Assembly: GCA_038087875.1 (NCBI GenBank)
Contig: CM075987.1
Location: forward strand, 23,066,001 to 23,130,000
Reading direction: 5' to 3'
From: Malacoraja senta
Lineage: Eukaryota
Length of the DNA stretch: 64,000 bases
The position numbers and the translations under genes were made by a program. The notes under the pieces are model-generated. The model saw nothing but the letters and a program-made list of their open reading frames with translations. It did not search any database and was not told the DNA's origin. This document shows, one piece after another, positions 17,957 to 48,000 of the stretch; the first letter of the stretch is position 1; each line of letters opens with the position of its first letter.

Positions 17957-18903
17957 TGTAGGGGTTTTGGTTCCCTTTACTCCACTTCGGGCCCAACTGC
18001 CCGAAAAAGGGGTTCCCCTAGGTTCTAGACCTCGGAATTATGGTGGGATATGATAAAAGGTTGACTTGACCAGAGCGTGCTGATGAGAGAAAACAGAAAC
18101 CAAGACGGACTCAAAGCAAGTCTAAAATTTACAGGCTTTATTAAACAATGAGAAATCGAATCTCACCAACACTACATAATACGTGACTAAACTTATGCTT
18201 TAAACTAAGACTATGGAAAGAAAATTATCGGGCAAGTCGTAAAACTTACTTTACACAATTTTACAAATACACCCCCTTTCCCCTTCTTCTCTCAACCTCT
18301 ATCCTATTTTCGGGAACTTCACCAGGTCGTCTGGGGTACTTACAGCTAGATCGATGCAGGGTCAGGAGTCGTCCAACAGAGCAGGAAAGAGAGCGAGTTC
18401 TGGCTTGACTCCTGCTTTTTATACCTGAGTTTCTCCCTTGAAACCCCCCAGGTGGTCCTCTGGACAAAAGGGTCTTTCGATGATTCCCAGTTTCGATCTG
18501 GCATGAACAATAGGCTTCCGATGATAAGGGGTTTGCTGATGTCATGATGCCTCAGCCTGATCGTTATCCCATCACCTAGATGGGCTCCCATTGTCCCAAT
18601 GGATGGGTCATCCACGATGGTGATTGTGCTTGCTGCTGGCCTGTATACCACCGTCTGCTGAGGCTCGGTACCTTCCTTTGTGTTTCCAAGATAATCTCGT
18701 TATCTCCGTCTCAGCCTTTCCTGCTCACACCATTCGCATAGTGGTGTAATGCCCAGGCCCACAGACAGGTTCGAAACTGGTTCTTCCTTTGTGGATTGTT
18801 TTTTTTTTCCTTTTGCAGCCAGCATGTCTTTTTAAAATGTCCAGGTCCTTATCCCCGAGTTTCTTCCATAATCTTGGGGAGGATTTGCCCCCAATAACTT
18901 ACA
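17957..18903 (-). repeat. 3' LTR
   Basis: TGTA...TACA termini. Minus-strand TATAAAAA at 18416-18423 and AATAAA at 18137-18142. Short purine run TAGGGG just upstream. Confidence 0.95.
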
Positions 18904-19282
18904 TGCCCCTACGATACGTCCAGGCTTGCACGGACCGTATCGATTGACAAAGTTAGTGGGCAACTCCTCCAGTCTCCAGAGTTGTAAACACCCCTGTCGA
19001 GATTGTGAAATTATGTACCCCGAAAGACCCCTTAATTGCTAAACTAGACCCTCGAGGCACATTAACTTACACTATACATCTTTTACTTTAAATCAATCCC
19101 ACAAACCATACAGTACCATCACGACCATTCCCTGAAAATGCAGGGAACACAACATATGTACGAAAACCATTGCAAGAGTACAGACATTTTACAGTGACGA
19201 GGTGTCGTTACAGCTGCGTCGGGCGGCTCGATTTACCAGCTGTTGTAATTTGGCCATCCTCCTCCGCCTATTAAATTTGCAA

Positions 19283-20451
19283 TTAATAACATAGCAAATA
19301 CACCACAATTATCATCTGGCAGATGATCAGAATATGGGACACGATGCGGACACATGCTGGAACTACGATCCAGGACTCCAGGTCCCACAAACTTGGAGAC
19401 TTGATTTCTTCGATCTCCCTGGCGATATCCAGTGTCTTTTGTTCCAGGGAGAAGAAGTGTTTGTGCGACAACTCGACCGCCGCCAGCAACTCTTTTAATT
19501 TTTCCTTCACTGGGGGAATATCATACCTGAAATGGGCCACATAGTTAGATAAGTCAGTTACATTTTCTCGTACCGAGAGGTGAACCGAAGAAGGTTCCAG
19601 GATGGGTAATATTCGCTGCTGTGCCACATGGACTTCTGCCCTGGGTTTAAAACAGAAGCTGCTGTGTGGTATCAGGCACCACAGCTGTGATCCGTGCTGA
19701 TACCGCTGGGCACTTGTGGTGACACAGTACGTCCCACTGCCTATATACGCCACCTGTGGAGGGACATGGTCTGCCGCCATCGCCTCCATGGTACAGTTTA
19801 TAGGCTGTGCCCCAACAGTCCTGAACCCACAGTGAGGCCTAGCCTTGGCGCCCATGTGCTCCCCGGCTCCGACAACCCAAAAGGTCAATGCCTGTCACAG
19901 CTTGCTCCCTCACTATGACATAAGGCGGGACCTTCCCGTAGCGAATATGCACCCCCCCACGAACAATCCCACGTTCTCCACTCGGTACAGAGGAGCTGGT
20001 CGTGCCAAGGTTCCCATCACCGGGATTCTTATGACCACTCCCATTATGGTGTGATTGGACTTTCCGCAATCCACCGGAACCGGGTAGGCCTCGGAGGCCA
20101 CACGAAGCTGACAAGGACTCAAAGTGCTGTTATAAGGGTGTAGCGCTGCTAGGTGCTGGTTGCTTATCCAGGAGGGGACCCGACCTTGCCTCGGGTCTTC
20201 CAGGTTGCTCCTCCCCTCCCCCAACAACCACGCACCATACAGCCCACACACCTCATTCTGTGCAGCCTGATCGGACGCATTCCGGTCCCCTTTAATCAAA
20301 GCGTTTATCGTTTTTGCATGTGTCTCCAATTGTGCTAAGATTTCTTTTAGATGTAGAGTCATTGCCACCTCTTCGTGCAGCCCCGAACCTACCACCACAT
20401 TTTCCTCCCCTAGAACCTCATTGCCATCATCAATACGGCGGGGCTACCCAT
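19283..20451 (-). pseudogene. env: env, F-like class I fusion glycoprotein, frameshifted and apparently missing its N-terminal part
   Basis: Heptad-like segment (LHLKEILAQLETHAKTINALIK), GVVIRIP...LYRVENVG, PYVIVREQAVTGIDLLGC, a Cys-rich block, a second heptad (VKEKLKELLAAVELS...LDIAREIEEI) and a TM segment (IVSHILIICQMIIVVYLLC), spread across three frames. Confidence 0.75.
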
Positions 20452-21092
20452 CTGGAAAACAAAGCAAAACACCTCCTTGCCTCCACATCGCCGTCCCCCT
20501 CCCTGCACTCCATCACACCCATGGAAGAGTGGCCATCCGGCCGACGGTAGCGGCTACCGTACTAATAATGGCATTCGGGGTTTTGTCTTTGTCTGTTGTG
20601 GTCTACTTTTCCACAGCCCATCCCTTTGATGCAGCCGACGTTCCCGTACTGTCCGTCCCTGTACTCCCCTGTATCTATACAAAACCCTATATCTTATTAC
20701 CAAACGCTAACTACATCTACTCACACACAAACCAATGCTATATACAACGCCACCCATCTCCGGGTGGCCAACTCATAACTGGTCCCCGTCACGCTGGGGC
20801 CACCCCTCTGGTGGGCCCACCCGTGCAGGACAGTACTCCTCCTGTCGAGAGGCCTGACTGCCCCTCACCTCCCTTTGCACTACGGGGTTTCGAGATACCC
20901 CCATGTTCCCTGCGGAGACTGGGCTCCCTCCAGCCGCACTCCGTAGTGCCCCGTTTCGGCCACTCTCCTTCCCGGCCCTCCTGTGGCCGGCCCTAGCCCT
21001 AGGTTTAATTAGGGATGGGGACCACCTTACTGGGGGTTTAGTGACCCTGTTACTCCTACATCTGACCGGGGGTTCCCACACCAGAGGTGATA

Positions 21093-21292
21093 NNNNNNNN
21101 NNNNNNNNNNNNNNNNNNNNNNNNNNNNNNNNNNNNNNNNNNNNNNNNNNNNNNNNNNNNNNNNNNNNNNNNNNNNNNNNNNNNNNNNNNNNNNNNNNNN
21201 NNNNNNNNNNNNNNNNNNNNNNNNNNNNNNNNNNNNNNNNNNNNNNNNNNNNNNNNNNNNNNNNNNNNNNNNNNNNNNNNNNNNNNNNNNNN
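21093..21292. other. Assembly gap (200 N)
   Basis: Run of N. Confidence 1.
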
Positions 21293-21384
21293 TGTATTTT
21301 TGTTATTCTATGCCTTGTAAGGTGTCCTTGGGTTTTAGAAAGGCGCCAGTAAATAAAATGATTATTATTATTATTATTATTATT
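21293..21384 (+). mobile_element. LINE 3' end (L2-like) with (ATT)n tail inserted in the integrase C-terminus
   Basis: GTAAGGTGTCCTTGGGTTTTAGAAAGGCGCC...AATAAAATG(ATT)n directly abuts the IN codons QLPRRVK. Confidence 0.7.
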
Positions 21385-22398
21385 TGACTCTACGGGGAAG
21401 CTGAATGGCATACACCATGGGACTGGCCTTGTCCACTATGTTGTATGGGCCAGCATACAAGGGTTCGAACACCCCTACCCTAGCATATCTCCTGACCATT
21501 ACCTGGTCCCCCACTGCCCACTCGCAATGCCTGCGAGGCTCCAGCAGTAGCTTGTTTCTTTGGTGCTGGGCCCCCATGTTTCTGGCTGCCTGCCAGTGAA
21601 CCTGCCTAACTTGTTCAAATAGCTTCTTGGCAAACTTGTCCCGGTTCACTTCCCTGAGCTGTCCCTCCGTTAAGGCTGGGACCATAACGTGCATGGGCGT
21701 TCTCATGACCCGGCCCGTCATAAACTCATGGGGAGAGTACCCCGTACTCCTGGACTGGCTGGCCCGAATCCCCATTAGGACCAAGGGGTAAAACCTCCAC
21801 CCACCGGTTGGGTGAGTCCCCTGTTTCCTTCCTTAATCCTTTCCTTTATTGTCCGGTTCAACCGCTCCACCGGACCTGAGGACTGGGGGTTGTAGGCCAC
21901 ATGCCACTTGGCCTTGATGCCCAGTATTCTAAGGGTGGACTGCATGACCTGTCCCGTGAAATGGCTCCCCTGATCTGATTCTACGAACTGTGGGAGTCCC
22001 CACCTGGTGAACACCTCCCTAACCAGGATTTTTGCCGTACCCATAGCTGCTCTGCAAGGGACGGCCTCTACCCATTTTGAGAACACATCCACAAGGACTA
22101 AGCAGTACTTGTAACCCCCTTGAGCGGTTGGAAGGGGTCCGATGTAGTCGATTTGAATCGACTGCCATGGCCCCTCCACCCTCCTGATGTGTCCCATAGA
22201 AACCTTCCTTTTCTGGGGGTCTGGGTTGTTTGCTGCGCAAACCAGACAGCTTGCACAAAAGTCGTGAACGTCTTCCCTGAGCTCTGGCCACCATCCTGCC
22301 ATCTCTACTCGCTGCCATGTGGTCTCTGGCCCGGGGTGACCTGCCCCTGGACCCTCATGGGCTAGTTTTAAAAATTCCCTTCTGTACAGGGAAGGCAC
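21380..22398 (-). pseudogene. pol: pol: integrase
   Basis: HHCC (HEGPGAGH...CLVC), D-D-E (IQIDYIGP, ESDQGSHF, VERLNRTIK) and GPY motif (YAGPYNIV), with one frameshift. An RSNRVTKPPVR tail continues beyond the gap at about 20950-21090. Confidence 0.92.
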
Positions 22399-22644
22399 TA
22401 CCTACTTATCTCCCTTGAATAACATGCCTTCCTTTACTGACATGTCTTTACCCCCATACGGTCCCTCTATTTTCTCCTGCCTGCAAATGGCTGCTGAGGC
22501 AGCCTTTAAAATGGGGTCTTGTGCCTGGACCGTGGTCAGGTCCGGGGCCAAAACCACTCCCGCACGCCCCTTTTCTCGAGGCTGCTCCCTGGCTGCAGCT
22601 ACCTGTCCTTCCTCATAGGGGTCCCATGCTTTCCCACTCCTGGC

Positions 22645-23577
22645 TCATTCCCTGGCCAAGCGATCCGCCCTCTGATTTCCCTCGCCTCGTGGCTCCGTTT
22701 TGGAATGGGCCTTCACCTTATGGATATATCTATCCCCGCCCTTCCCTACGGCTGCTACAATCCTCTCTAATAGGGGTTTAGTGGTCAGGGGCTTCCCGTC
22801 CGATGAGGTGTACCCTCGGCGGGACCAGATGGCCAGATATTCCGTGCAGGAATTGCATGTGAACATGCTGTCCGAACATATGGTGTATGGAGGGGGGAAA
22901 CGCTCGGGATGGGTCACCACGTACATTACCGCCGCCAGCTCGGCCTGCTGGGCGCTTAACGTATGTGGGAGTTTAAGGGCTAGGGCTATCTCCGCCTCAG
23001 GGTCCCAGATCCCACAGCCCGTGAGCCGTATGCCCTCGGACACGATACTGGACCCGTCCACGTATATTTCCCTACCCGTGGGATGTAACCCTGCTCTAAG
23101 CCCAAAGTCCACCTCCCATACCCCTTCCACCGAGCAATGGTGTGGCTCCCCTGGGTACACCAAATTGGCTGCGAGCTTGGGCTCACATATCCTCTCAACC
23201 CGTAAGGCCGTTTGGGAAAGGAGAAGGGTCCAGCGAGTGATCCTCGCACTGCTAACGGTCCCATCCTTAATCCGACCGTCCAGCAGCATCTGGGTCGGGG
23301 TATGGTGGGTCAGGAGGGTTATGGGGGACATTCCTATGAAGACCTGTACCCTCTTCATTGCCCAGTATGTGGCTAGCATGTGCCGCTCACAGTTTGAATA
23401 GGACCTTTCTACCTCTGTGAGGACTCTGGAGGAATACACCACTGGCCTTAACTTGCCGTGCCGTTCCTGGAGGAGCACTGCGCTCAGGCCATCGCTGCCT
23501 GCGGCTACCTCCAGGAAAAATTCCTCCCTGTAGTCAATGGCTCCCAGAGCTGGGGCCTTTTGCAGGTCCCGCTTCAA
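22645..23577 (-). pseudogene. pol: pol: tether (degenerate RNase H) plus retroviral-type RNase H
   Basis: FFLEVAAGSDGLSAVLLQ...PVVYSSRVL...YSNCER lacks the catalytic D. It is followed by IYVDGSS...SAQQAEL...ICSDS...HKVKAH...GNQRADRLA. Confidence 0.9.
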
Positions 23578-23602
23578 ATGGACGAATGCCGACTCGCACT
23601 GC

Positions 23603-24574
23603 TCATCCCACTCCCACTCTACCCTTTTGCGTAGCAGCCGGTGCAGAGGTGCTGCAGTCGCGGCATAGTCCTCTATAAAGTCTCGGCAGTAGCCCGTGAC
23701 TCCCAGAAATGATCTTACCCCTCCCCACGTCCGTTGGGACTGGGAGTTCCTGCACTGCCTGCCTTCTTGCTGTATCGATACCCCTTTCTCCGGCCCTAAG
23801 GGTCAGTCCCAAAAACTTTACCTCTTGTAACCCTATCTGTGCCTTCTTGGGATTTACTTTTAAACCGCTCTTACAGAGCAGCTCCAGCAGTTTGTTTACT
23901 AGGGGCCCATGTTCCTCACTGGTGTCCGTGAATAGCAAAATATCGTCCACATACTGGACGATCTTGTGGGGCTCACTGAATTCCTTTAAACATTCCGCCA
24001 TACATTGGTGGAAAATGCTGGGGCTATTGTGGAACCCTTGGGGAAGACAGTTCCACGTGTACTGCTGCCCCTTGAATGTGAAAGCAAATTTGTACTGGTC
24101 TTCCTTCCTGACCGGGATAGACCAGAAACCGTTTGAGATGTCTAGCACCGTAAATACAGATGCAGACGCCGGAATTTCCCCTAATAGGTCTGCTACGGCT
24201 GCCACAGTTGGAGCGCAAGCCGGAATATTCTTATTCAGGACCCTATAATCTACCGTGGCCCTCCAGGAATTGTCTGGCTTCCGTACGGGCCAGAGCGGTG
24301 AGTTCACGTGGTTGGCTATGGGCCTCAAAACGCCTTGCTTAACCAGTGAACTCAGGGCGACTTCTAAGTCAGCCTCTGCTTCTCGGGGAAAACTATACTG
24401 TTTCTGCGGTCGGGACATGGGATCCCCGTCTATCCTGACCTCTGTTCCTGTGACCCTTCCATAGTCGTGCTTGTGAGTAGCGAATGCGGCCAAATTTCGC
24501 TTAACCTGGCCTCGATACTCTGTCGGGGTCTGCCTCACTAGGGCCTCTACATCGTACCACTCTCTGGGCTTCAC
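23603..24574 (-). pseudogene. pol: pol: reverse transcriptase
   Basis: NSPLWPVRKPDNSWRATVDYRVLN, LDISNGFWSIP, LPQGFHNSP, QYVDDILL and VKFLG. Confidence 0.95.
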
Positions 24575-24599
24575 GACACACAGAGCCCCTCTCTGGTGC

Positions 24600-24975
24600 C
24601 CCCTCGATGACCATTACCTCCTTCTCTCTCTCAGCCCCTTCTCCTGCTATGCCCCACAAACAGTGGTTCCTCAGGTCCACCAGGACCTGGTGGGCCACTA
24701 TAAAGTCGGCGCCTAGTATCCCCTTTCCCTCCTGCTCCCAACTCATCAAGACGCATTTCCACTGCGCCTGGAGTGCTCCTAATGGAATGGACAAGGGAAC
24801 AGAGAAAAACCCCGACTTCTCGTTTCCTGTAAAACCGACAAGACTATAGGGCGCCCCACTAGATAGAGGGGATGTACGGGGATTGTCCGTGTGGACAATG
24901 GTACTGGAAGCACCTGTGTCCAGCAGGTAACTCCCGACCACATCCTGGACCTCCATCTTGACCCAGGGTCTCCCA
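24600..24975 (-). pseudogene. pro: pol: aspartic protease
   Basis: LLDTGASSTIV and GILGADF motifs. Confidence 0.9.
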
Positions 24976-25011
24976 CATGGGCCATATGAATGTGGGCTGT
25001 TTTGCTGGCAG

Positions 25012-26898
25012 TCATAAAGGTGCCGGGGTTGCGGATACGGGCGCGCCCTGGCCTGTTGCCATGGCTACCTGTCCGGACCCTCCCACTTTGGACTGCAAAT
25101 AGGCCAATAGATCTCTTACATCTATTGTTCCCGGCACGGCCGCTCCCTCCTCCGGGGCTGGGTCGGCTGTTACCGGGGTCCTATCCCCCACTGTTCTACT
25201 TGGGTTTCTGCACTCCCTCTTGTAGTGCCCGGGCTTCCCACACCCGTAGCTCACCGGCCTCATCTCGGAAGAGATCCGGCTGCCTTCCTGTTTCCACTCC
25301 CTCCTTTTGGGGGGTGCCGGTACTATTTCGTGCACCTTGCCCTTAAAGGGCTTCTCCTCACTTCTCTCCCCGTTGTGATACGCAAGGGTGAGCTTCCTTA
25401 TTACCTCCGCCTCGTTAAGGTTTGGGTCCGCTGGGTCGAGCCAGTGCTCGGCCTTTGCCCTAACTCGCGGGAGGCAATTCGCCACCAGAGTCTTCAGCCA
25501 GTGAGCTGTTCTCTCATCTAAATTCCGCCTATCTAAAGGCGTCCCACACTCTCCCTCATACACTGCCCACAGCCTGTCTGCGAACATGTCCGGGGACTCA
25601 GCTACCTGCTGCTTCGTCTCCCCCACCCTGGCGAAAGGACTACCCTGATTCAACCCCATGGCCTCCAGAACCACCGTTTGTGCCGCTACCCATGTTTCAG
25701 GTCTTCCCCCTTCCCTGGAGGTCACCGCCTTGCATAGGTAGGAATCCAGGGTCATCAGTAGTAGCTTTACCCGTTCTACCTCATCGCAATCGTTTATGTC
25801 GGCTGCCTGCTGCACCTCCATAAAATGCAATGACGGGTCTCCTGCCTTGGTTAACCTGGGAACATGAGTCACCATCCCCCTCAGCACGTGTGCCCCATGG
25901 GGAATGATGATATCACTCTCTATGGGCCCCCTATCTGCCTGCCCCACCGGGGCACCATATTTTCTTTGCCGTACCGGGCACATCTGCCCTACCAAGGGCT
26001 GTTGCCCCTTTACCCCCTGCTCTCACACCATGATCGGTAACCCCACCACCTCGTGGTGTGCTACACATGGTGCAGACGCCGCTAACTAAGGGGGCTCTCC
26101 TGCCCCTCCTTGGGCCTGTCCCTCCCCGGACAACCCGAACCCCACCTGCCGACCCGGACCTATTCCCGGCGGCTCAGGAGGCGGTCTATTCCCCTTTGCC
26201 TCTGGGGAATCATCTGCTGAGGGAAGCCCTCTGCACCTGGGGGACACCCCTGGTCCAACAAGGTGAACCCGTCCCCTAGTTTTGGACAGAGTCTCCTCCA
26301 GCTGCGCTATCCTTGCCTGGCAAGGCCCGTGATCTCAATCCCCTAGCTCGCTACGGGCCACCCTGTATGCTGCTTGTATAGCTTGGAACTTTCCCTCCAG
26401 CTACCTGTACTTCTGTGTACTCTGAGCCAGGAGTTCCTGGGCGTTCCGTTCCCTCTCCTTTGCCTCTACCGCCTGGCATTGGAGGAATTCCTGGGCATTT
26501 CTGTGGGACTCCCTAGCCTGCAAGATACACTGCCTGGCTTCACTGAGTTCCTCATATAGCCCTTCCCCTTCTCTAGCGCTTTCCTCAGCGCTGGCCCTAG
26601 CTTTTCTCAGTTGCTCTTCCAGACTATCTACCTGTCTCTCCATTTTGGCTACCTGCTGTGATAGGCACACTAGCCAAACTGCCTTTTCCTGCCCTTTATT
26701 ATAATCTTTGCTTTCCATCCATTCTGCTGCAGCTGCTGCAGACTGCTGTGCTGTCAAAAGTGCTACCACCCATTGTTTGGTGAGATTGATCTTTTTAAAC
26801 AGATAAGAGGAGATTCTCTCCTCCATCTTGCTACGTTCTCTCACCCCCTCTGGCAAGTCACATATCCCAAACCACCGAGGTCCTGCCATGGTCGCCAT
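25012..26898 (-). pseudogene. gag: gag with N-terminal coiled coil, capsid-like region and degenerate zinc knuckle
   Basis: ATG at 26898 (MATMAGPRWF), an E/Q/A/R-rich heptad region that continues through in-frame stops, ORF 25012-25995, and a knuckle SYGCGKPGHYKREC with the first Cys lost. Confidence 0.82.
26880..26897 (-). promoter_or_regulatory. Primer-binding site (tRNA-Ser-like)
   Basis: TGGCGACCATGGCAGGAC begins 3 nt after the 5' LTR end. The TGGCG...GCAGGA pattern resembles the complement of tRNA-Ser 3' ends; tRNA identity is not verified. Confidence 0.7.
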
Positions 26899-26900
26899 TC

Positions 26901-27847
26901 TGTAGGGGTTTTGGTTCCCTTTACTCCACTTCGGGCCCAACTGCCCGAAAAAGGGGTTCCCCTAGGTTCTAGACCTCGGAATTATGGTGGGATATGATAA
27001 AAGGTTGACTTGACCAGAGCGTGCTGATGAGAGAAAACAGAAACCAAGACGGACTCAAAGCAAGTCTAAAATTTACAGGCTTTATTAAACAATGAGAAAT
27101 CGAATCTCACCAACACTACATAATACGTGACTAAACTTATGCTTTAAACTAAGACTATGGAAAGAAAATTATCGGGCACGTCGTAAAACTTACTTTACAC
27201 AATTTAACAAATACACCCCCTTTCCCCTTCTTCTCTCAACCTCTATCCTATTTTGGGGAACTTCACCAGGTCGTCTGGGGTACTTACAGCTAGATCGATG
27301 CATGGTCAGGAGTCGTCCAACAGAGCAGAAAAGAGAGCGAGTTCTGGCTTGACTCCTGCTTTTTATACCTGAGTTTCTCCCTTGAAACCCCCCAGGTGGT
27401 CCTCTGGACAAAAGGGTCTTTTGATGATTCCCAGTTTAGATCTGGCATGAACAATAGGCTTCCGATGATAAGGGGTTTGCTGATGTCATGATGCCTCAGC
27501 CTGATCGTTATCCCATCGCCTAGATGGGCTCCCATTGTCCAGATGGAGGGTCATCCATGATGGTGATTGTGCTTGCTGCTGGCCTGTATACCACCGTCTG
27601 CTGAGGCTCGGTACCTTCCTTTGTGTTTCCAAGATAATCTCGTTGTCTCCGTCTCAGCCTTTCCTGCTCACACCATTCGCATAGTGGTGTAATGCCCAGG
27701 CCCACAGACAGGTTCGAAACTGGTTCTTCCTTTGTGGATTGTTTTTTTTTTTCCTTTTGCAGCCAGCATGTCTTTTTAAAATGTCCAGGTCCTTATCCCC
27801 GAGTTTCTTCCATAATCTTGGGGAGGATTTGCCCCCAATAACTTACC
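26901..27847 (-). repeat. 5' LTR
   Basis: Copy of 17957-18903 with about 15 differences counted by eye. TATA-like element at 27360-27367. Confidence 0.95.
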
Positions 27848-28455: not shown

Positions 28456-29266
28456 CCACACACACACACACTGACCCTCACTGGGGTACAGGTCCCACAC
28501 ACACACACTGACCCTCACTGGGGTCTGGGTCCCACACACACACACTGACCCTCACTGGGGTCTGGGTCCCACACACACACACACACACACTGACCCTCAC
28601 TTGGGTCTGGGTCCCACACACACACACACTGACCCTCACTGGGGTACAGGTCCCACACACACTGACCCTCACTGGGGTACAGGTCCCACACACACACACA
28701 CTGACCCTCACTGGGGTACAGGTCCCACACACACACACTGACCCTCACTGGGGTCTGCGCCCCACACACACACACACACACACTGACCCTCACTGGGGTC
28801 TGGGTCCCCCACACACACACACTGACCCTCACTGGGGTACAGGTCCCACACACACACACTGACCCTCACTGGGGTACAGGTCCCACACACACACACTGAC
28901 CCTCACTGGGGTCTGGGTCCCACACACACACACACACACACACTGACCCTCACTGGGGTCTGGGTCCCACACACACACACACACACACTGACCCTCACTG
29001 GGGTACAGGTCCCACACACACACACACACACACACACTGACCCTCACTGGGGTCTGGGTCCCACACACACACTGACCCTCACTGGGGTACAGGTCCCACA
29101 CACACATACACTGACCCTCACTGGGGTACAGGTCCCACACACACACTCACACACACTGACCCTCACTGGGGTACAGGTCCCACACACACACTCACACAGA
29201 CACACACACTGGGGTCTGGGCCCCACACACACTGACCCTCACTGGGGTCCGGGTCCCACACACACA
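28456..29266. repeat. Minisatellite with variable (CA)n spacer
   Basis: About 20 units of CTGACCCTCACTGGGGT(ACA/CTG)GGTCC(CA)n. Confidence 0.95.
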
Positions 29267-29504
29267 TTGTTCCTCACAGGCCATGTCTTCACCCTAAGAT
29301 GCAGAATTCCCAGCTGAAGCCTCTCAGCTCTCTCTCTGCTGGGGCCCAATACCTCCTGTGGCCACCTCACATCTCATTGGAGACCACAGCTGTGAGGAAC
29401 CAAGAGTGTTTCACTGTGTGCGAGCTGCTAAATTCCAGCAGTGAGCAGCCATTGTTGCACATCTGGGCTGGATTACATTGCTGGGACACATCTGGGCAAG
29501 GGGG

Positions 29505-32994: not shown

Positions 32995-35934
32995 TGATAT
33001 AAATTTTTATTAGAAGCAAACATATTACAGTGTAGAGTAACATATTATAATAGAATAGAAGAAAAAAACTTTTCATATACATCAATCACTCATACATTAT
33101 TACATTTGTCAATTGTCAGTTAATTCTGCTTCTAGTGGGTTTTTTATATAGATAGAAAAAGAAAAATAGAGAGAAAGAAGAGAAAGAAAGAAGAATTTCA
33201 ATATCAAAAAAGAAAAAAAGGTGGAATGAATAACTTATAATACGTCATAGGAGATAAGTTCGAAGGTTATGAAATATAATTACATCTAATCCTGAGTTCA
33301 AGCTACAGTCGGGCTTTCGCGCTGGGCCACTCTATCCCTTCAAATAGGCAATGAATGGAGCCCATATTTTAACAAAAAGTTCTTGCTTGTCCATTAAGAC
33401 GAGTCTAATTCTTTCTAGATGTAGGGTCTCCGACATTTCCACAATCCACATTTTAATTGTGGGGGTTGTAGGGCCTTTCCAGAATTGTAATATTAATTTT
33501 TTCCCTGTTATTATACTGTAGTCAAGGAAGTTTCTTTGGCTTGTTGTGAGTGTTAAACTTTGTTCTGATATCCCAAGTATTATTAATTTTGAGTCTGGAG
33601 CTAGTTTGGTATTAACAACTTCAGAGATTATTTGAAAAATATCAGTCCAGTAATTTTTAATTTTTATACAATTTGCAAAGGTATGTGTTAAATTGGCCTC
33701 TAGGTGCAGGCATTTATCACATATAGGAAAAATATGTGGGAAAATTCTATTTAGTTTTATTTTGGAATAATGTAATCTGTGTAAGACTTTAAATTGTATT
33801 AAAGCATGTCTGGCATTTAACGAACATTAATGTATATGTTGTAAACTTTCGTCCCAAATATCTTTCGTAATAGGATAACCTAACTCATTTTCCCATTTAT
33901 GTCTATATAGTTCCATCGGTGGTTCCTCATTATTTAAGAGAATGTTATAAATATAAGCTATTAATTTCTCAGTGTTAGGATGCTTATTCAAACATTCAAG
34001 AATTTCTGGTTCCCTAGTCCTATAAACTTGTGTATTGGATTTAACATAATCTCTAATTTGTAAATATCTGAAAAAGTTATTTGAGTGTAGTCCATGATTC
34101 TGTTGTAACTCTTGAAATGACAGAAAGATGCCTTCCCTATAAAGATGTCCAATCCTTTTAATTCCATGATTTTTCCATTGTATAAAACCTCTATCCAATA
34201 TGGATGGCTTGAATAGAGGATTATTTACAATGGGAAGACATAGTGGTATATTATTCAGTTTTAAAGCCTTTTTTAATTGTTTCCAAATTCGTATTCCACT
34301 ATGTATTATAGGGTTTTCCTTATAGGTTTTTTTATGCAATTTTGTGGTAGCAAATATAATCGAACCTATTTCAAAAGGTAAACAGTCTTCCTTTTCCATC
34401 CTTAACTATTCTGGTTGTTGGTCCATTTCTTCCAGCCAGAAATTCATGTTTTTAATATGGACTGCCCAAAAATAAAATAAGAAATTTGGCAAAGCCAAAC
34501 CTCCGTTGCTCTTTGACTTACATAAATGTTTTTTACTTATTCTATGATTCTTATAATCCCAAATAAAGCTTGTAACAATGGAGTCGACTTTTTTGAAAAA
34601 GTTTTTTGGAATATATATCGGAATTAATTGAAATAAATATAGTAGTTGCGGTAAGAAAATCATTTTTATAGCATTAATTCTACCAAGCAGTGAAATAGGA
34701 AGTGTTTTCCAGTACTGAATATGTTTGCGTAATTTATTAAGTAAGGATGGAAAATTTTGTTTAAATAAAGAGGTATATGTCTTAGTTACATAGATTCCTA
34801 AATATTTAAGTTTATCTTTAACTATTTTAAAAGGGGATTGTTGTATTGTATTTAAGTTGAATTTTGTTATTGGCATAATTTCACTTTTATTCCAATTAAT
34901 CCTATATCCTGAGAACTGACCAAATTGTGTTATTAGATTTAATAGATTTGGAATACTAGTTTCTAACTTTGTAATATATATTAATACATCATCTGCATAT
35001 AAGGAAATTTTATTCCTTGTATCTCTAGTGTTGTACCCGTGTATTCCTGGATGGTTTCTAACGCTTTCTGCTAATGGTTCAATTGCAAGAGCAAATAATA
35101 GTGGGGATAGTGAACATCCTTGTCTACAACCTCGAGAAAGATTAAATTTGGCTGATAACATTTGATTTGTTAATATTCTAGCTGTTGGATTAGAGTATAA
35201 CAATTTAACCCATGTGCAGAACTTCTCTCCCAATTGAAATTTTTTCATTACCGAAAATAAATATGTCCATTCTACCTGGTCAAATGCCTTTTCAGCATCT
35301 AACGAAATAATTGCTAGATCTGCATTTGGAATTCTATTTGTATATATAATATTGAATAGTCTTTTCAAATTATAAAATGAGTAACGTTTTGGAATAAAAC
35401 CTGTTTGGTCCGGGTGTATTAATTTATTAATCACTAAGCTCAATCTATGAGATAGGATTTTGGTTAATATTTTCTGATCAGTATTTAAGAGAGCTATTGC
35501 TCTATATGAACCTGGGTCTTCAGGATCCTTATCCGGTTTCGGTATAAGTATGATTGTAGATTCATTTAGAGTTTCTGGAAGTTTCTGTTGAGTATATCTT
35601 GTTTGTAAAGTCTCTGTAGACGTGGAGAAATCAGATCGTAAATTTTTTAATAAAATTCAGAGCTTAGACCATCAGGACCTGTGGCCTTTCCATTTTTTTA
35701 AAGATCTAATTGACTCCTCGATGTCTTTTACCGTAATTTCTACATCTAGTGATTCTCTCTCTTTCTGATCTAGACCTGTAAGATTACATTTCTGTAGAAA
35801 TGTTTCCATTCCTACTGGTTGTTCTATTGTTTTAGATGAATACAATTTTTGATAATATTGTAAAAATCTATCATTAATATCTTTAGGTAGTGTTAATGTT
35901 TCTCCCTTATCTGATCTAATTTTGTAAATTAGAT
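32995..35934 (-). mobile_element. L1-clade LINE, 5'-truncated, disrupted ORF2
   Basis: IHPDQTGFIP, SLDAEKAFDQVEW, GCRQGCSLSPLLFALAIEPLA and LYADDVL. Same family type as 44052-47840. Flanked by a 73-bp direct repeat. Confidence 0.93.
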
Positions 35935-36255
35935 CAGACGCTGCCTGAGCTGCTGAGTTCCTCCAGCACTTTGTGTTTGACTCCACAAGCCGTAGTAATC
36001 ACTTTCGGTCCTTCACGCCAGGCCTTTGCGGTTCATGTACCAAGTCCAGTCATATTTATCGTCACAAGCTCAGGGACAGTGAGGTAGAGCCACAATGAAA
36101 ACCTTGCTTCCAGCAGCATCACGGACACACAGACAACACACACATGTACCTAAAGAAACATCCATTACATGTAACATTTCCAAAAACAAATAAGCTTTTT
36201 TCCAATCCCTTTGCACTTCCATATTTTGTAGCCTCGTTCTATTTTAATAATACCT

Positions 36256-43589: not shown

Positions 43590-44039
43590 ATTGCCACACC
43601 ACCTGTCCTTTGTGGAAAGGTTCTTCCAGACCACCACCTTTGACCACAAGTCCATGGGGCAGTGGTCAGCGTGGAACACCTGTAGACACTGTAGGACAAG
43701 GACACCATGGGTCCTCTGACATGGCTCCCTGAGTGGACTGCCCGGCTTGTCTGACGAAATGCCTCATCGCCAGAACTCACCAACAAGCACCAGGACCTAG
43801 CTTGGCTGGAGTTAAGAGGGGCCCTCCCAGTCAGATCCTTCCTGCACCGTTGGAACCTCACTGCCAGTGCACACTGCCCTTGGGACGGCTGCTACGGAGA
43901 GGAGATGGTTGCCAGCCTCTTTACAGAGTGTGGATTTGTGCAGAGTATCTGGGGAAGGATGCAAGGGTCCTCGAACAGCTCCAGAACAGAGGACTCTCTG
44001 ATTTACAGGCTGTTCGCAGGGACACGCTGAGATGGCTTT
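43590..44039 (+). mobile_element. Old Tx1-like LINE remnant, host of the L1 insertion (continues at 47853-48000)
   Basis: Encodes NASSPELTNKHQDLAWL...ALPVRSFLH-like sequence. A related 3' end lies at about 42680-43135. Confidence 0.5.
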
Positions 44040-44051
44040 AAGACCATCAAC

Positions 44052-47000
44052 AACTATGGTAAATATTTACGCTCCGAATTTTGATAACCCTCAATTCTTT
44101 GAGAACATTATAGATATAATACTGGAGTTTAATTATCAAAATGTCATAATAGGAGGGGATTTCAACTGTGTTTTAGATCCATACTTAGACAAATCAGCAA
44201 AACAAAGAAGGAGTAATACAAAATCTAAGACTAGTGAATTTCTAAATACATATATAAAAAATACTAACATAACAGATGTATGGAGATCTGCTAACCCAGC
44301 AGGAAGGGAATACTCGTTTTACTCTTCGGTACATAAAACATGCTCAAGAATTGATTATTTTTTAGTGGATAGGAAATTAATGCCATATATAATTAACCCA
44401 ACTTACCATATTAGTAGTATTTCTGATCACTCTCCATTGACTTTTTTAGTAAAATTTGAAGGAATGCCGGGAAAGAATTTTTTTTGGAGGTTTAACACAT
44501 ATATATTAAATTACTTACAGGGTTATCAATATTTGAAACAACAAATGATATCATTTTTTTAGATAAATGATACACCAGGTACCTCACCTTCTTTAATATG
44601 GGAAACTTTTAAAGCATTTATTAGAGGAATTATAATTTCATATGAAATTTTTCAAAATAAGAAGAATAAGACAGAACAGATGCTGTTAGAACAAGAAATA
44701 AGACAGTTAGAGTTAGATAATGCTAAAGATCCCACTATAGATAAACATAATAAGATAATACTACTGAAATTTAAACTTAACCGAATTCTCTCGGCAAGAG
44801 TAATAAGATTATTCCAAATTACAAAACAGGAACATTTTGAGTTTGGTGACAAACCACATAAGCTGTTGGCGCGTCAATTGAAAAAACAGGAAAAGGAAAA
44901 TACTATAAATAAAATTAAATCCGAGAATGGTGAATTACTAACACTACCTAAAGATATTAATAAAAGATTTGTTCAATTTTATCAAAATTTATATACATCA
45001 AAAACCAAAACAGAAGATAGTAAAATTACAAACTTTTTAGATAAATGTAATCTACCAAAACTTGACCTTTTGGAACAAGAAGAACTAGGAGCGCAAATTA
45101 CAATCGAAGAAATAGGTGAAACAATAAAATCGCTGAAAAATGGTAAGACACTGGGACCAGATGGTTTTAGTAATGAATTTCATAAAAAGTTTCATGAGAT
45201 AACGACCCCCTATCTATTTAATTTATATACTTACGTTTTTAAAGAAAATAAATTACCTGAAACATTAGCAGAATCAACTATTACGCTAATTCCAAAGAAA
45301 GATAAAGATCTAGAGGAACCGGGCTCATATAGAGCTATATCACTTTTAAATACCGACCAGAAAATTCTAGCAAAGACTTTAGCTAGAAGACTAAGCAAAT
45401 ATATTAGTAAATTGATAAACCCTGATCAAACGAGGTTTATACCCAAAAGATATTCATTTAATAATTTGAGACGCCTGTTTAATATAATGTACTCACATAA
45501 AACGGAGGAAAAAGACTTAGCAATTATTTCTTTGGACACAGAGAAAGCATTTGATCAGGTAGAATGGCAGTATTTATACATAGTATTACAAAAATTTAAT
45601 ATGGGAGAGAATTTTATTGCATGGGTGAAATTATTATATGATAAACCGATGGCAAGAATATTAACTAACAGCATGTTATCTCAAAAATTTCAATTATCAA
45701 GGGGTAATAGGCAGGGATGTGCTTTATCACCCCTGCTATTTGCCCTTATGATAGAACCTCTGGCTGAAAGTATAAGAAGCCATCCGAATATTCAGGGTTA
45801 TAATACTAGGGACTCAAATAATAAAATTTCATTATATGCAGACGATATTTTGTTATATATAACAAATTCACAAACGAGCATACCAAATTTATTAAATTTA
45901 ATAGAGGAATTTGGGTCCTTTTCTGGATATAGAATAAACTGGAACAAAAGTGAAATTATGACGTTAAAACCTCAAGAATCCACACACTTATTGAAATTCC
46001 CCTTTAAAATAGCAACAGAAAAATTCAAATATTTGGGTATTCAGATTACTAGAAAACATAAAGCTTTATTCAATGCCAATTTTATACCCTTAATAAATAA
46101 ACTTAATATAATGATAAAATTTTGGAAAACACTCCCTTTATCATTAATAGGCAGAATAAATGCTATTAAAATGAGCTTCCTACCACAGTTATTATACCTA
46201 TCTCAATCTATACCAGTATATGTACCAAAATATTTTTTTTCTAAACTGAACGCTAATATTACTAATTTAGTTTGGGATTACAAATCACATAGAATTAAAA
46301 AAGAACACTTATGTAAACCAAAAGATGTCGGGGGACTTTCACTCCCTAATTTTCTGTATTACTATTGGGCAATACATATTAAGAATATAATTTACTGGTT
46401 GGATAGTTCAACTCAACAGACAGAATGGATAAAAATGGAGAAAGAGGATTGTTATCCTTGTAATATAGGAACAATCCTCTTCTCCCCGAAAAAAATGAAC
46501 AATACAATATATAAGAAAAACCCAATTATACAGGATACAATAAGAATATGGAAACAAATAAAATTATCCTTAAAATTAAGAAACCTATCATTGTTAACAC
46601 CGATAGCGAATAATCCTTTATTTAAACCATCTATGATGGATAAAATATATAATCAATGGGAAAGTTTAGGAATTAAAAGGATCGGGGATATGTATGAAAT
46701 GGGAGATTTATTATCATTTCAACAATTACAATTAAAATTTAAACTGAAAAACACTCATTATTTTAAATATTTTCAGATTTGTAATTTTTTGAAGTCATAC
46801 ATACAGGGATATCAAAAAATAACTCCTGATTTACTAGAAGAAGTAATGAATATAAAAGCTGATACACAAAAATTAATATCATATTTATATAATAGTATCT
46901 TAAATATAGATTTACCTGTGACCGAGGTAATTAGAGAAGAGTGGGAACGGGAATTATTGGTAAAAATTACGAAGGCTACATGGGAAAAGTATTTGACATA

Positions 47001-47840: not shown

Positions 47841-48000
47841 AAGACCATCAACCACGGGAGTACTTGCTGAGCGACTCGCTGAAGCTTGGTGAAGCCAACA
47901 TCAAGGCTCCGTGGGGGAGGACCACATTCTAGGGTCCTTCAGCTGCTGGACATTGAGAGACGGAGTCTGGTGGGACGTCCCCTTGAACAGGGGAAGGCAG

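What the first reader, a model, noticed from the sequence alone, without database searches (positions are those of the whole stretch)
19283..20420. Env resembles a paramyxo/pneumovirus F protein rather than retroviral SU-TM
The reconstructed order is heptad, then VVIRIP...LYRVENVG, PYVIV...GIDLLGC, multiple Cys, a second heptad, and the TM segment. About 250 residues separate the two heptads, as in F1 subunits. I see no CX6CC or immunosuppressive motif typical of gamma-type TM. This points to a glycoprotein lineage shared between retroelements and negative-strand RNA viruses.
Basis: inference. Interest (0 to 1): 0.8.

Follow-up and report, generated by a model that had tools for sequence, protein, structure and literature searches.

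The report
Dead retroviral env with F-protein fold
This stretch is the broken tail end of an envelope gene from an endogenous retrovirus whose intact sister copies fold like the fusion (F) protein of paramyxoviruses, a link already published for foamy viruses and lokiretroviruses, so it is a new example and not a new principle.

Summary
On the minus strand, 20418-19283 carries, in three reading frames, the C-terminal half of an env gene. The order is distal heptad A, a Cys-rich beta core, heptad B and a membrane anchor. It lies in an LTR provirus (27846-17957) of a family with at least 150 copies. The window copy is dead. About 1.07 kb of env is deleted, with the junction at 20418. That removes the N-terminal domain, the furin site, the fusion peptide and the start of heptad A. 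Frame breaks follow near 19966, 19860 and 19289.

Sister copies keep an open 798-codon env. An AlphaFold model of one matches only paramyxo-/pneumovirus F and foamy-virus Env in a search of 48,161 PDB representatives (Z 11.3-8.1; next rows are single helices at Z 5.5 or less). The family profile hits foamy-virus Env by sequence (E 2.3e-5). Pfam Fusion_gly, Foamy_virus_ENV and the CX6CC motif are not found.

RT and integrase are nearest foamy virus among solved structures. By my hand count RT is nearest snakehead retrovirus, and Gag also looks snakehead-like.

This is a new member of a known kind.

The parts
26901..27846 (-). 5' LTR (946 nt) of the provirus
   Evidence: Local alignment with the 3' LTR gives 12 mismatches and two 1-nt gaps in 945 aligned bases. 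CTAG(G) flanks both ends.
26401..26961 (-). 186-codon open frame with a coiled-coil character, starting at the LTR edge. Probably the N-terminal part of Gag.
   Evidence: ORF. Pfam gives only a weak coiled-coil-type hit (Laminin_II, E 0.0041). SnRV Gag is described as having a coiled-coil N-terminal region plus one zinc finger (PMC2717909). The assignment is inferred.
25012..26022 (-). gag (capsid to nucleocapsid) with one CCHC-type knuckle, damaged in this copy
   Evidence: ORF. zf-CCHC partial hit, E 0.0046. The sister copy L017 has the knuckle with a different residue changed.
24501..25064 (-). aspartic protease
   Evidence: Pfam gag-asp_proteas E 8.9e-4 and RVP E 0.022, both below the curated cut-offs.
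23603..24613 (-). reverse transcriptase
   Evidence: Pfam RVT_1 E 1.8e-36. Best solved relatives are foamy-virus PR-RT 7kse at E 3.2e-48 (168 bits), then MLV/XMRV-type RT at 127 bits, Ty3 at 101 and HIV at 71.
22645..23802 (-). tether (degenerate RNase H) plus RNase H
   Evidence: Pfam RT_RNaseH_2 E 4.5e-23, RT_RNaseH E 8.4e-21 and RNase_H E 2.2e-18.
21380..22401 (-). integrase, in two frames (22401-21775 and 21832-21380)
   Evidence: Pfam Integrase_H2C2 E 7.7e-17 and rve E 6.5e-14. The best solved relative is prototype foamy virus integrase 3l2q at E 3.2e-25 (92 bits), then Ty3 at 62 and HIV at 45.
21093..21292 (.). assembly gap of 200 N between pol and env
20419..20487 (-). remnant of the 5' end of env (first ~24 codons, with MGSPAV at 20451-20434), in a frame different from the next piece
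   Evidence: blastn against the open copy L013 (nt 867-936, 95.7% identity).
20418..20418 (-). junction of the internal env deletion (about 1.07 kb; equivalent of ORF residues ~25-381). It removes the N-terminal domain, the F2-like segment, the furin site RQRR, the fusion peptide and the start of heptad A.
   Evidence: The same junction is contiguous in 9 of 11 other loci examined. Undeleted sequence continues at 20418 in contigs of runs X1, X2 and X8.
20191..20418 (-). distal part of heptad repeat A (central helix)
   Evidence: Model helix 384-445 (ORF 397-458), mapped onto the window by the alignment. Motif coordinates.
19612..20190 (-). Cys-rich beta core corresponding to F domains III, I and II. 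It is read in three pieces because of two frame breaks near 19966 and 19860.
   Evidence: Strands at model residues 478-646 with pLDDT 71-94. This region aligns to F and foamy-virus Env chains and carries the profile match to foamy-virus Env.
19409..19504 (-). heptad repeat B
   Evidence: Model helix 682-713; motifs at 19507-19406.
19283..19363 (-). membrane anchor, cut short by a frame break near 19289 and a stop at 19285-19283. The remains of the cytoplasmic tail run out of frame to about 19201.
   Evidence: Hydropathy peak at ORF 742-770.
17957..18902 (-). 3' LTR

Best explanation
The finding is the 3' half of a dead env gene in an endogenous retrovirus that lies on the minus strand from 27846 to 17957. 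The layout is LTR, gag with a coiled-coil N-terminus and one zinc knuckle, protease, RT, tether/RNase H, integrase, env, LTR.

The family's intact env encodes a class I fusion glycoprotein of the F type (subclass Ib in the terms of Fernandez et al. 2024). Its order is:
- signal peptide
- an N-terminal domain of about 230 residues that varies between subfamilies (presumed receptor-binding module)
- an F2-like strand-and-helix segment
- a furin site RQRR followed directly by a hydrophobic, Gly-rich fusion peptide
- a long heptad A
- a Cys-rich three-domain beta core
- heptad B
- a membrane anchor and a short tail

Inferred mechanism, by analogy with F and foamy-virus Env. The precursor trimerises and is cut by furin. 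On triggering, heptad A extends into a central coiled coil that throws the fusion peptide into the target membrane. Heptad B then zips back along it to form a six-helix bundle, pulling the membranes together.

What is shown and what is inferred:
- Shown: the order of the elements, the predicted fold, and the sequence-profile link to foamy-virus Env.
- Inferred: cleavage, trimer formation, receptor binding and fusion.

The window copy cannot make this protein. It lacks everything upstream of mid-heptad A and has further frame breaks. Its exact deletion junction recurs in other loci, so this env-less form multiplied as a retrotransposon or with help in trans.

The element is most probably a relative of snakehead retrovirus (clade 'Huo' of Xu et al. 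2018), on the foamy side of the retrovirus tree. It is not a lokiretrovirus and not a spumavirus in the strict sense. This assignment is the least secure part.
For: Provirus anatomy:
- LTRs are 98.7% alike, with CTAG(G) flanks on both sides.
- The pol domains are identified by Pfam.

Family:
- 150 scored matches in the same genome. Four lie in open frames of 798 codons, and I translated three of them.

Anatomy of the open env:
- RQRR at 341-344, followed by GVVNDGFTAFNTGTSIINS.
- 26 Cys and no CX6CC.
- Hydropathy peak at 742-770.

Fold (model of 785 aa: mean pLDDT 64, but 71-94 over residues 430-650 and 83-92 over 241-300):
- Foldseek against PDB: every listed row is a paramyxo-/pneumovirus F. 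The best is 1ztm_C at E 4.5e-10.
- VIA second look: all top 50 entries are F. 8tvg_A scores Z 12.6 with 328 residues aligned at rmsd 6.8, and 8dmj_A scores Z 11.7 with 289 aligned at rmsd 5.0.
- Foldseek-free search of 48,161 chains: ranks 1-16 are 14 F proteins plus foamy-virus Env. 8rm1_D scores Z 8.4 with 279 aligned; 8rm0_A scores Z 8.1 with 272 aligned. From rank 17 there are only single long helices at Z<=5.5.
- The alignments start at model residue 246, before the cleavage site. So both the F2-like and the F1-like parts are matched.

Sequence:
- A profile of 42 family members hits foamy-virus Env at E 2.3e-5, 4.9e-4 and 2.3e-3. The match runs over the VVIRIP...LYRVENVG...Cys-rich core, with the Cys columns aligned.

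Viral predicted structures (BFVD): 52 hits at E<=1e-3, including
- arli-, lispi- and chu-like glycoproteins
- Env of the epsilonretroviruses WEHV-1 (3.5e-10) and WDSV (1.4e-9)
- baculovirus F
- paramyxovirus F0
- feline foamy virus gp130 (3.1e-4)

Lineage:
- RT and IN are nearest foamy virus among solved structures.
- The RT motif LDISNGFW occurs only in SnRV (3 of 3 places) in the RT alignments printed in the supplement of PMC7947760.
- My hand count over 219 RT-core positions of that alignment gives SnRV 45%, SFV 37% and Loki-Lca 37%.
- SnRV Gag is described with a coiled-coil N-terminus and one zinc finger (PMC2717909), as here.
Against: - No Pfam family supports the fold. PF00523 and PF03408 are absent and from the 25 families listed. 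The one weak hit is Baculo_F, E 1.1e-3 and below its cut-off, on one chimeric relative (P0038).
- Sequence identity to F chains is only 7-15%. Several superpositions have large rmsd (up to 30 A), because the long helices sit differently.
- Z values of 8-12 are above, but not far above, the range the tool calls common for unrelated models.
- The model is a monomer built from a 42-row alignment. Its first 240 residues are unreliable.
- The fold evidence comes from a sister copy, not from the window's broken sequence.
- The profile search also gave a weak hit (E 0.0093) to a HERV-K chain over the helical C-terminal part.
- The lineage claim rests on bit scores against solved structures and on a hand count by eye. 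No tree was built.
- No named SnRV, foamy or epsilon Pol came back from two database searches.
- SnRV Env did not appear among the 23 of 50 env relatives whose names I saw, nor in the 50 BFVD rows.
- SnRV Env is reported to have a 136-residue tail (PMC12193657). Here the tail is about 30 residues.
Confidence: 0.8

Rival explanations
1. The element is a foamy-like endogenous retrovirus (FLERV) of the shark/frog clade (CmiFLERV/XtrFLERV of Aiewsakun and Katzourakis 2017). Its env is simply a very divergent foamy-virus Env.
For: - RT, IN and Env all have foamy virus as their best solved relative.
- The env family was seen in 16 shark or skate proteins, 4 frog proteins and 1 coelacanth protein, among the 23 of 50 relatives whose names I saw.
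- That is the odd host pairing reported for CmiFLERV and XtrFLERV, for which no env could be detected in 2017 (PMC5512871).
- Endogenous foamy viruses of cartilaginous fish have been reported (Wang, Chen and Cui 2023). I saw that paper only as a reference-list entry; it is not held.
Against: - Gag has a zinc knuckle and a coiled-coil N-terminus like SnRV. PMC2717909 notes that spumaviruses lack the zinc finger.
- My hand count puts RT nearer SnRV (45%) than SFV (37%).
- The env lacks the foamy hallmark of a receptor-binding domain inserted between the HRC helix and the furin site. In this model the site follows the HRC-like helix within about 20 residues, and the extra domain is N-terminal.
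- Pfam Foamy_virus_ENV does not match.
Confidence: 0.25
2. The element is a lokiretrovirus, the lineage whose Env was published as similar to PF00523. This window would extend that lineage to cartilaginous fishes.
For: - Lokiretrovirus Env is F-like, and some lokiretroviruses have an 'smc-gag-pol' layout, that is, an extra coiled-coil-like gene in front of gag (PMC7947760).
- The core motif of the printed loki Env consensus proteins resembles this family's by eye (SIPMV..IF..KIHNVG against RIPVM..LYRVENVG).
- The nearest Pol relatives carry the 'NYNRIN-like' label, and loki IN is said to be close to CGIN1. That CGIN1 and NYNRIN are the same gene is my recollection.
Against: - The printed loki Env proteins are compact, with a short F2 and no long N-terminal domain, and are clearly another family.
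- The Loki-Rca protease/Pol differs from the frog Pol (P0069) that is 49% identical to this element. 0 of 4 P0069 motifs occur in the supplement.
- RT hand count: Loki-Lca 37% against SnRV 45%.
- The 2020 screen tabulates Orectolobiformes (Chondrichthyes) as 3 genomes screened with 0 lokiretroviruses, and lists Callorhinchus and Rhincodon without the mark used for positive species.
- No PF00523 match was found here.
Confidence: 0.07
3. The F-likeness is not homology. It is a generic class I helical hairpin plus an unrelated beta domain that the predictor and the aligners force onto F.
For: - There is no Pfam support, and identity to F is 7-15%.
- Mean pLDDT is 64, and many superpositions have high rmsd.
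- The tool warns that Z 7-8 is common for unrelated models.
Against: - In the Foldseek-independent search the top 16 of 48,161 representatives all belong to one structural kind (F and foamy-virus Env). There is then a gap to Z 5.5.
- The alignments cover 270-367 residues of the beta core, including a segment upstream of the cleavage site. They are not just the helices.
- The matched core is the high-confidence part of the model.
- An independent sequence-only profile search hits foamy-virus Env in the same core.
Confidence: 0.05
4. The env was captured recently from a paramyxo-like or other negative-strand RNA virus by this one retroviral family.
For: The best Foldseek matches in BFVD are glycoproteins of arli-, lispi- and chu-like viruses and a fish filo-like virus (E 3.9e-13 to 3.1e-11).
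Against: - Identities are 12-16%, so nothing suggests a recent donor.
- The family is already diverse (16-34% identity between shark, frog and coelacanth members).
- Other retroviral Envs (foamy, WDSV, WEHV) are found by the same searches. That fits long residence in retroviruses better.
Confidence: 0.03

Closest known systems
Foamy virus Env gp130 (PDB 8RM0 and 8RM1; 8OZH is a related entry titled 'Envelope glycoprotein')
   Same: - It is the only family with a significant sequence-profile match (E 2.3e-5, about 160 residues of the beta core).
- It shares the predicted fold (Z 8.4 and 8.1, 279 and 272 residues aligned).
- It is a retroviral Env with a furin-cleaved class I fusogen of the F type (PMC11468914).
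   Different: - In foamy virus a 327-residue receptor-binding domain is inserted between the HRC helix and the furin site. There is also a leader peptide with a second furin-like site.
- Here the furin site follows the HRC-like helix within about 20 residues, the extra domain is N-terminal, and only one R-X-[KR]-R lies in the ectodomain.
- Pfam Foamy_virus_ENV does not match.
Paramyxovirus and pneumovirus fusion protein F (Pfam PF00523; for example hPIV3 1ZTM, NDV 3MAW, Langya 8TVG, RSV 3RKI)
   Same: - These are the best structural matches, with the three-domain core, heptads A and B, and furin site plus fusion peptide in the same order.
- About 240 residues lie between the heptads.
   Different: - PF00523 does not match, and identity is 7-15%.
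- This protein has an extra N-terminal domain of about 230 residues.
- It is encoded by an LTR retroelement, not by a negative-strand RNA genome.
Lokiretrovirus Env (Wang and Han 2020, PMC7947760)
   Same: It is a retroviral Env published as similar to PF00523 (E 2.2e-7 for Loki-Str). It has a furin site, fusion peptide, coiled coil and TM, and by eye a similar core motif.
   Different: - It is a compact protein without the long N-terminal domain.
- It belongs to a different pol lineage.
- The tabulated shark order (Orectolobiformes, 3 genomes) had none in that study.
Snakehead retrovirus (SnRV) and related ERVs (clade 'Huo', Xu et al. 2018, PMC6001957; CmiERV lineage I in elephant shark, Han 2015, PMC4422223)
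   Same: - It is the nearest RT by my hand count (45% over 219 positions), and the motif LDISNGFW is shared only with SnRV.
- Its Gag has a coiled-coil N-terminus and one zinc finger.
- The clade is reported in all vertebrate lineages, and SnRV-like ERVs are reported in a chimaera.
   Different: - SnRV is a complex exogenous virus with accessory ORFs and a 136-residue Env tail.
- Here I saw no accessory ORF between pol and env, and the tail is short.
- Whether SnRV Env has the F fold could not be tested here.
Epsilonretrovirus Env (WDSV, WEHV-1), predicted structures in BFVD
   Same: They match the model at Foldseek E 1.4e-9 and 3.5e-10. This suggests the same F-type core in another fish retrovirus group.
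   Different: - These are much longer proteins (1159 and 1317 aa), with 10% identity.
- They are predicted structures only.
- The pol lineage differs (MLV-type IN C-terminus in epsilon-like relatives).
Baculovirus F (Ld130) and errantivirus/Ty3-gypsy F-type Env (PF12259)
   Same: They have the same structural kind, and this is another case of a retroelement carrying an F-type fusogen (PMC12583693; Chary and Hayashi preprint). BFVD hits reach E 1.0e-9.
   Different: - Their hosts are invertebrates and their pol is Ty3/gypsy.
- Only one weak sub-threshold Pfam hit links them to this family.
- That preprint reports no vertebrate elements homologous to the invertebrate ones.

Membership tests
Paramyxo-/pneumovirus F (Pfam PF00523 Fusion_gly) | Match to the Pfam model at or above its gathering score | tested here: not met
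   No PF00523 hit at E<=10 on two 798-aa open copies. None at E<=0.1 on 19 relatives. Not among the 25 of 78 families listed for the 42 members. The genome-wide scan was silent, but so were its controls.
Paramyxo-/pneumovirus F (Pfam PF00523 Fusion_gly) | Three-domain (I, II, III) ectodomain built from both cleavage products, flanked by heptads A and B | tested here: met
   Tested on a predicted model of a sister copy. Z 12.6-8.2 to F chains, with 275-367 residues aligned from model residue 246 to 650-716. Foldseek E down to 4.5e-10.
Paramyxo-/pneumovirus F (Pfam PF00523 Fusion_gly) | Furin-type site immediately followed by a hydrophobic fusion peptide | tested here: met
   RQRR at 341-344 followed by GVVNDGFTAFNTGTSIINS in the open copies. 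This part is deleted from the window copy. Cleavage itself was not tested.
Paramyxo-/pneumovirus F (Pfam PF00523 Fusion_gly) | Encoded in a negative-strand RNA virus genome, usually beside a separate attachment protein | tested here: not met
   The gene lies between integrase and the 3' LTR of a provirus.
Foamy virus Env (Pfam PF03408; gp130) | Match to the Pfam model | tested here: not met
   No hit, and not among the families listed. The genome scan was silent, with silent controls.
Foamy virus Env (Pfam PF03408; gp130) | Detectable sequence homology to foamy-virus Env | tested here: met
   The family profile matches three foamy-virus Env sequences at E 2.3e-5, 4.9e-4 and 2.3e-3, over profile positions 195-353.
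Foamy virus Env (Pfam PF03408; gp130) | Receptor-binding domain inserted between the HRC helix and the SU/TM furin site, with a leader peptide cut at a second furin-like site | tested here: not met
   The HRC-like helix (model 285-307) is followed by the furin site at model 328-331 with no inserted domain. The extra domain is N-terminal. Only one R-X-[KR]-R lies in the ectodomain (compared).
Gamma-type retroviral TM | CX6CC motif and an immunosuppressive-domain-type short ectodomain | tested here: not met
   No CX6CC in the 798-aa protein. No gamma-type TM appears among the rows. There is only a weak profile hit (E 0.0093) to a HERV-K chain over the C-terminal helices.
Lokiretroviruses | RT/Pol groups with the published Loki sequences | tested here: inconclusive
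   Hand count only: Loki-Lca 37%, SnRV 45% and SFV 37% over 219 positions. The Loki-Rca protease/Pol is unlike the frog relative of this element (0 of 4 motifs found). No tree was built.
SnRV-related retroviruses (clade Huo) | RT nearest SnRV, and Gag with a coiled-coil N-terminus and a single zinc finger | tested here: inconclusive
   Motif and hand count. Coiled-coil ORF and CCHC knuckle, compared with the description in PMC2717909. No SnRV sequence was available to any alignment tool.
Spumaretrovirinae in the strict sense | Gag without a Cys-His knuckle | tested here: not met
   A CCHC-type knuckle is present, damaged at different residues in the window copy and in L017. PMC2717909 states that spumaviruses lack the zinc finger.

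The most novel reading that the evidence does not exclude
The F-type (subclass Ib) fusogen may be the ancestral envelope of retroviruses, not an oddity of foamy viruses and lokiretroviruses. With this SnRV-like family, and with the structural matches to WDSV and WEHV Env, four or five deep retroviral lineages of fishes and amphibians would carry it. The short gamma-, beta- and lentivirus-type TM would then be a later replacement or reduction.

This family puts a swappable domain in front of a minimal F core instead of inside it. It would therefore be one of the 'gain/loss of domain' intermediates that Fernandez et al. (2024) said were lacking.
Probability: 0.2. Interest if true: 0.7.

Novelty: new member of a known kind. 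Interest (0 to 1): 0.4.

Why it matters
It adds an independent vertebrate retroviral lineage, with many copies and some open env frames, to the short list of retroviruses whose envelope is of the paramyxovirus F type. It also shows a third way of attaching an extra domain to that core: at the N-terminus. Foamy virus has it inserted and lokiretroviruses have none.

For paleovirology it explains why env 'could not be detected' in shark and frog elements by sequence searches. The gene is there, but only profiles and structure prediction find it.

It does not change the principle, which has been in print since 2020 and 2024. The window copy itself is a dead, env-deleted derivative.

Tried and rejected
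- **Pfam on the window pieces.** The three pieces gave only noise (DUF4279, DUF6083, Unpaired).
- **Single-sequence search of solved structures.** The open env gave one chance hit at E 0.7.
- **Genome-wide scans.** Scans of the own genome with PF03408 and PF00523 found nothing, but the control genomes were silent too. This says nothing either way.
- **N-terminal domain.** Folded alone it gave mean pLDDT 40, so no fold can be named. Weak Ig-type Pfam hits (Ig_3 in 2 of 42 members, best E 0.0085; V-set E 0.045 on P0031) stay unconfirmed.
- **Named Pol references.** Two searches for Pol relatives returned no named exogenous retrovirus, so no labelled tree could be built. The last name look-up did not help.
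- **RNA evidence.** No RNA holder is listed for the stretch. The laid runs are contigs of uncertain kind and say nothing on expression.
- **Absences from lists.** gB, gp64, HA and coronavirus S2 are not among the 50 rows. That is an absence from a list, not proof. Torovirus and coronavirus spikes and two herpesvirus proteins do appear in BFVD at weaker E.
- **Earlier findings of this scan.** Three look-ups returned nothing.
- **Literature.** Six searches and a seventh turned up no paper describing an F-type Env in an SnRV-like or shark ERV.
- **Papers I could not read.** Wang, Chen and Cui 2023 (J Virol) is not held. Any of these may bear on priority. Supplements of the bioRxiv preprints were not opened.
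Full report
**What is at the coordinates.**
The window is eukaryotic DNA. Its genome is 1.94 Gb in 6182 contigs. The minus strand between 27846 and 17957 holds an LTR provirus.
- Two 946-nt LTRs differ by 12 mismatches and two 1-nt gaps in 945 aligned bases. Both are flanked by CTAG(G).
- Between them lie a 186-codon coiled-coil-like frame that starts at the LTR edge, gag with one CCHC-type knuckle, protease, RT, tether plus RNase H, and integrase.
- A 200-N assembly gap follows, and then the env remnant that is the finding.
The outer pieces share one frame and the middle piece (PYVIV...GIDLLGC) uses another.

**The window copy is a deleted, broken env.**
- The 203-aa C-terminal piece finds 150 scored matches in the same genome. 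Four of them lie in open frames of 798 codons.
- I fetched five loci and translated three with the full open frame, L013-L015. A fourth, L017, carries a different deletion that fuses pol to the env tail.
- Aligned to L013, the window copy lacks about 1.07 kb of env. The junction is at 20418, and the length lost is not a multiple of three by the alignment bounds.
- The lost part holds the whole N-terminal domain, the F2-like segment, the furin site, the fusion peptide and the first third of heptad A.
- Further length differences near 19966, 19860 and 19289 break the frame, and the last one ends it inside the membrane anchor.
- Over the 1216 aligned bases the two copies are 96.1% identical.
- The same junction is contiguous in 9 of the 11 other loci taken from the best matches (L002-L009 and L011). 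It is not in L010, and L012 matches only partly. L013-L016 are undeleted. So the env-deleted form has multiplied.
- Contigs of three other public runs carry undeleted sequence that reads on at exactly 20418.

**Anatomy of the open env.**
- A hydrophobic N-terminus.
- About 230 residues that differ between subfamilies.
- RQRR at 341-344, followed by a Gly/Thr/Phe-rich hydrophobic stretch.
- 26 Cys and no CX6CC.
- A hydrophobic peak at 742-770, then a tail of about 30 residues.

**Sequence searches.**
- Pfam finds nothing relevant on the pieces, on two open copies, on 19 relatives or on the 42 aligned family members. The exception is a sub-threshold Baculo_F hit on one chimeric gene model.
- A full scan of 1.84 billion representatives found 50 relatives (36 at E<=1e-10).
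- I saw names for 23 of them: 16 from sharks or a skate, 4 from frogs, 1 from coelacanth, and 2 unnamed.
- A profile of 42 of these sequences, searched against all PDB sequences, hits three foamy-virus Env sequences first (E 2.3e-5, 4.9e-4, 2.3e-3). The match runs across the VVIRIP...LYRVENVG...Cys-rich core.
- A weak hit to a HERV-K chain follows (E 0.0093, helical C-terminus). After that comes noise.

**Structure.**
- AlphaFold2 on the 785-aa open protein with that alignment gave mean pLDDT 64. Confidence is 83-92 over residues 241-300 and 71-94 over 430-650. It is low over the first 240 residues and around the cleavage site.
- Foldseek against the PDB lists only paramyxo- and pneumovirus F proteins. 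The best is E 4.5e-10, with 229 hits at E<=1e-3.
- A second alignment of those hits gives Z 12.6 to 8.2 for the top 50 entries, all of them F.
- A search that does not use Foldseek, over 48,161 representatives, puts 14 F proteins and the two foamy-virus Env structures at ranks 1-16 (Z 11.3 to 5.6). It then drops to single long helices at Z<=5.5.
- The alignments begin at model residue 246, upstream of the cleavage site, so the F2-like and F1-like parts both fit.
- Against predicted viral structures there are 52 hits at E<=1e-3:
  - the best are glycoproteins of arli-, lispi- and chu-like viruses and a fish filo-like virus;
  - the list also holds Env of the epsilonretroviruses WEHV-1 and WDSV, baculovirus F, paramyxovirus F0, two herpesvirus proteins of aquatic animals, and feline foamy virus gp130.

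**How this differs from foamy-virus Env.**
In foamy virus the receptor-binding domain (residues 217-543) is inserted between the HRC helix and the furin site, and a leader peptide is cut at a second site (PMC11468914, passages). Here the HRC-like helix (model 285-307) runs almost directly into the furin site (model 328-331). The extra domain is N-terminal. Folded alone, that domain gave no usable model.

**Which retrovirus is it?**
- Among solved structures, RT is nearest foamy-virus PR-RT (168 bits, against 127 for MLV-type, 101 for Ty3 and 71 for HIV-2). Integrase is nearest PFV integrase (92 bits, against 62 for Ty3).
- The closest Pol proteins outside sharks come from frogs and coelacanth, at 48-51% identity.
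- The supplement of the lokiretrovirus paper prints RT alignments and consensus proteins, which I read only:
  - the RT motif LDISNGFW occurs there only in snakehead retrovirus (3 of 3 places);
  - my hand count over 219 core positions gives SnRV 45%, SFV 37% and Loki-Lca 37% (these figures may be off by a few positions);
  - the Loki-Rca protease/Pol is unlike the frog relative of this element (0 of 4 motifs found);
  - the printed loki Env proteins are compact and form another family, although the core motif looks related.
- SnRV Gag is described with a coiled-coil N-terminus and one zinc finger (PMC2717909), which matches this element.
- SnRV-related retroviruses ('clade Huo') are reported from all vertebrate lineages (PMC6001957), and SnRV-like ERVs from a chimaera (PMC4422223).
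- The alternative is membership of the shark/frog foamy-like clade, for which no env was found in 2017 (PMC5512871). It stays open because I could not build a labelled tree.

**What is known already.**
- Lokiretrovirus Env was reported as similar to PF00523 in 2020 (PMC7947760; abstract, section 5 and discussion passages).
- Foamy-virus Env was shown by cryo-EM to share the F core in 2024 (PMC11468914).
- F-type Env in Ty3/gypsy elements across invertebrates is described in a preprint (outline and passages).
- RSV-F-like fusogens across viral realms are described in Viro3D (PMC12583693).
- My searches found no paper on an F-type Env in an SnRV-like or shark ERV. The one paper on cartilaginous-fish foamy-like ERVs is not held, and the paper cap stopped further reading.

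**Verdict.**
The thing is a dead copy of a real F-type retroviral env. It counts as a new member of a known kind, with a modest twist in where the extra domain sits. The rate needed to date the insertion is unknown. The 1.3% LTR divergence would mean roughly 3 million years at a mammal-like rate, or about 29 million years at the slow shark rate assumed by Han 2015.

Noticed in passing
window 20418; loci L002-L009 and L011: The exact env deletion junction of the window copy recurs in 9 of 11 other loci taken from the best genome matches. So an env-less derivative of this retrovirus has amplified.
   Followed up: partly
L017:1183-3783: Another copy has a different internal deletion. It fuses the RNase H tether region of pol in frame to the Cys-rich part of env, giving an 866-codon open frame.
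   Followed up: no
model of L013 env compared with BFVD: Predicted structures of the Env polyproteins of the epsilonretroviruses WEHV-1 (E 3.5e-10) and WDSV (E 1.4e-9) match the F-type model. The F-type core may be common in fish retroviruses. I found no paper saying so, but my reading was capped.
   Followed up: partly
proteins P0002, P0003, P0010, P0038: Public gene models fuse pieces of this env to host-looking parts: cadherin-related (P0002), Niban-like (P0003) and an F-box protein (P0038). P0010 shows repeated C2H2-type zinc-finger motifs in alignment A2, which probably account for the zinc-finger Pfam hits that one of the 42 members gave. These are likely annotation chimeras, but exaptation was not excluded.
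   Followed up: no
L013:903-1670 and alignment A2: The N-terminal ~230 residues of Env differ completely between subfamilies (close shark or skate relatives, other shark lineages, frogs). Conservation starts at a CP...GP..GL...Y..V motif just before the F2-like strands. There are weak Ig-type Pfam hits in a few members, and no confident fold.
   Followed up: partly
window 25012-26022 and L017:196-1113: The single Gag zinc knuckle is damaged at a different residue in each of the two copies I read. The first Cys is changed in the window copy, and the His is changed in L017.
   Followed up: no
L013:3-662: In the open sister copy the pol frame runs on for about 200 codons beyond the integrase SH3-like end, as a Pro/Glu/Arg-rich tail. 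I saw no separate accessory ORF between pol and env.
   Followed up: no
window 28459-29320: Just outside the 5' LTR is a block of direct repeats with 33-82 nt start-to-start spacing (mostly 37-39 nt; 9 copies of a 167-nt reference unit). On the plus strand it reads as THTHTLTLTGVQVPH-like repeats.
   Followed up: no
window 34001-36000 and 44001-48000: Two AT-rich islands (GC 0.29-0.31) stand out against a background of about 0.50.
   Followed up: no
window 19000-21050, run X5: One public run of another coded organism holds this env at summed contig depths of 4,000-38,000, which suggests a very high copy number there.
   Followed up: no
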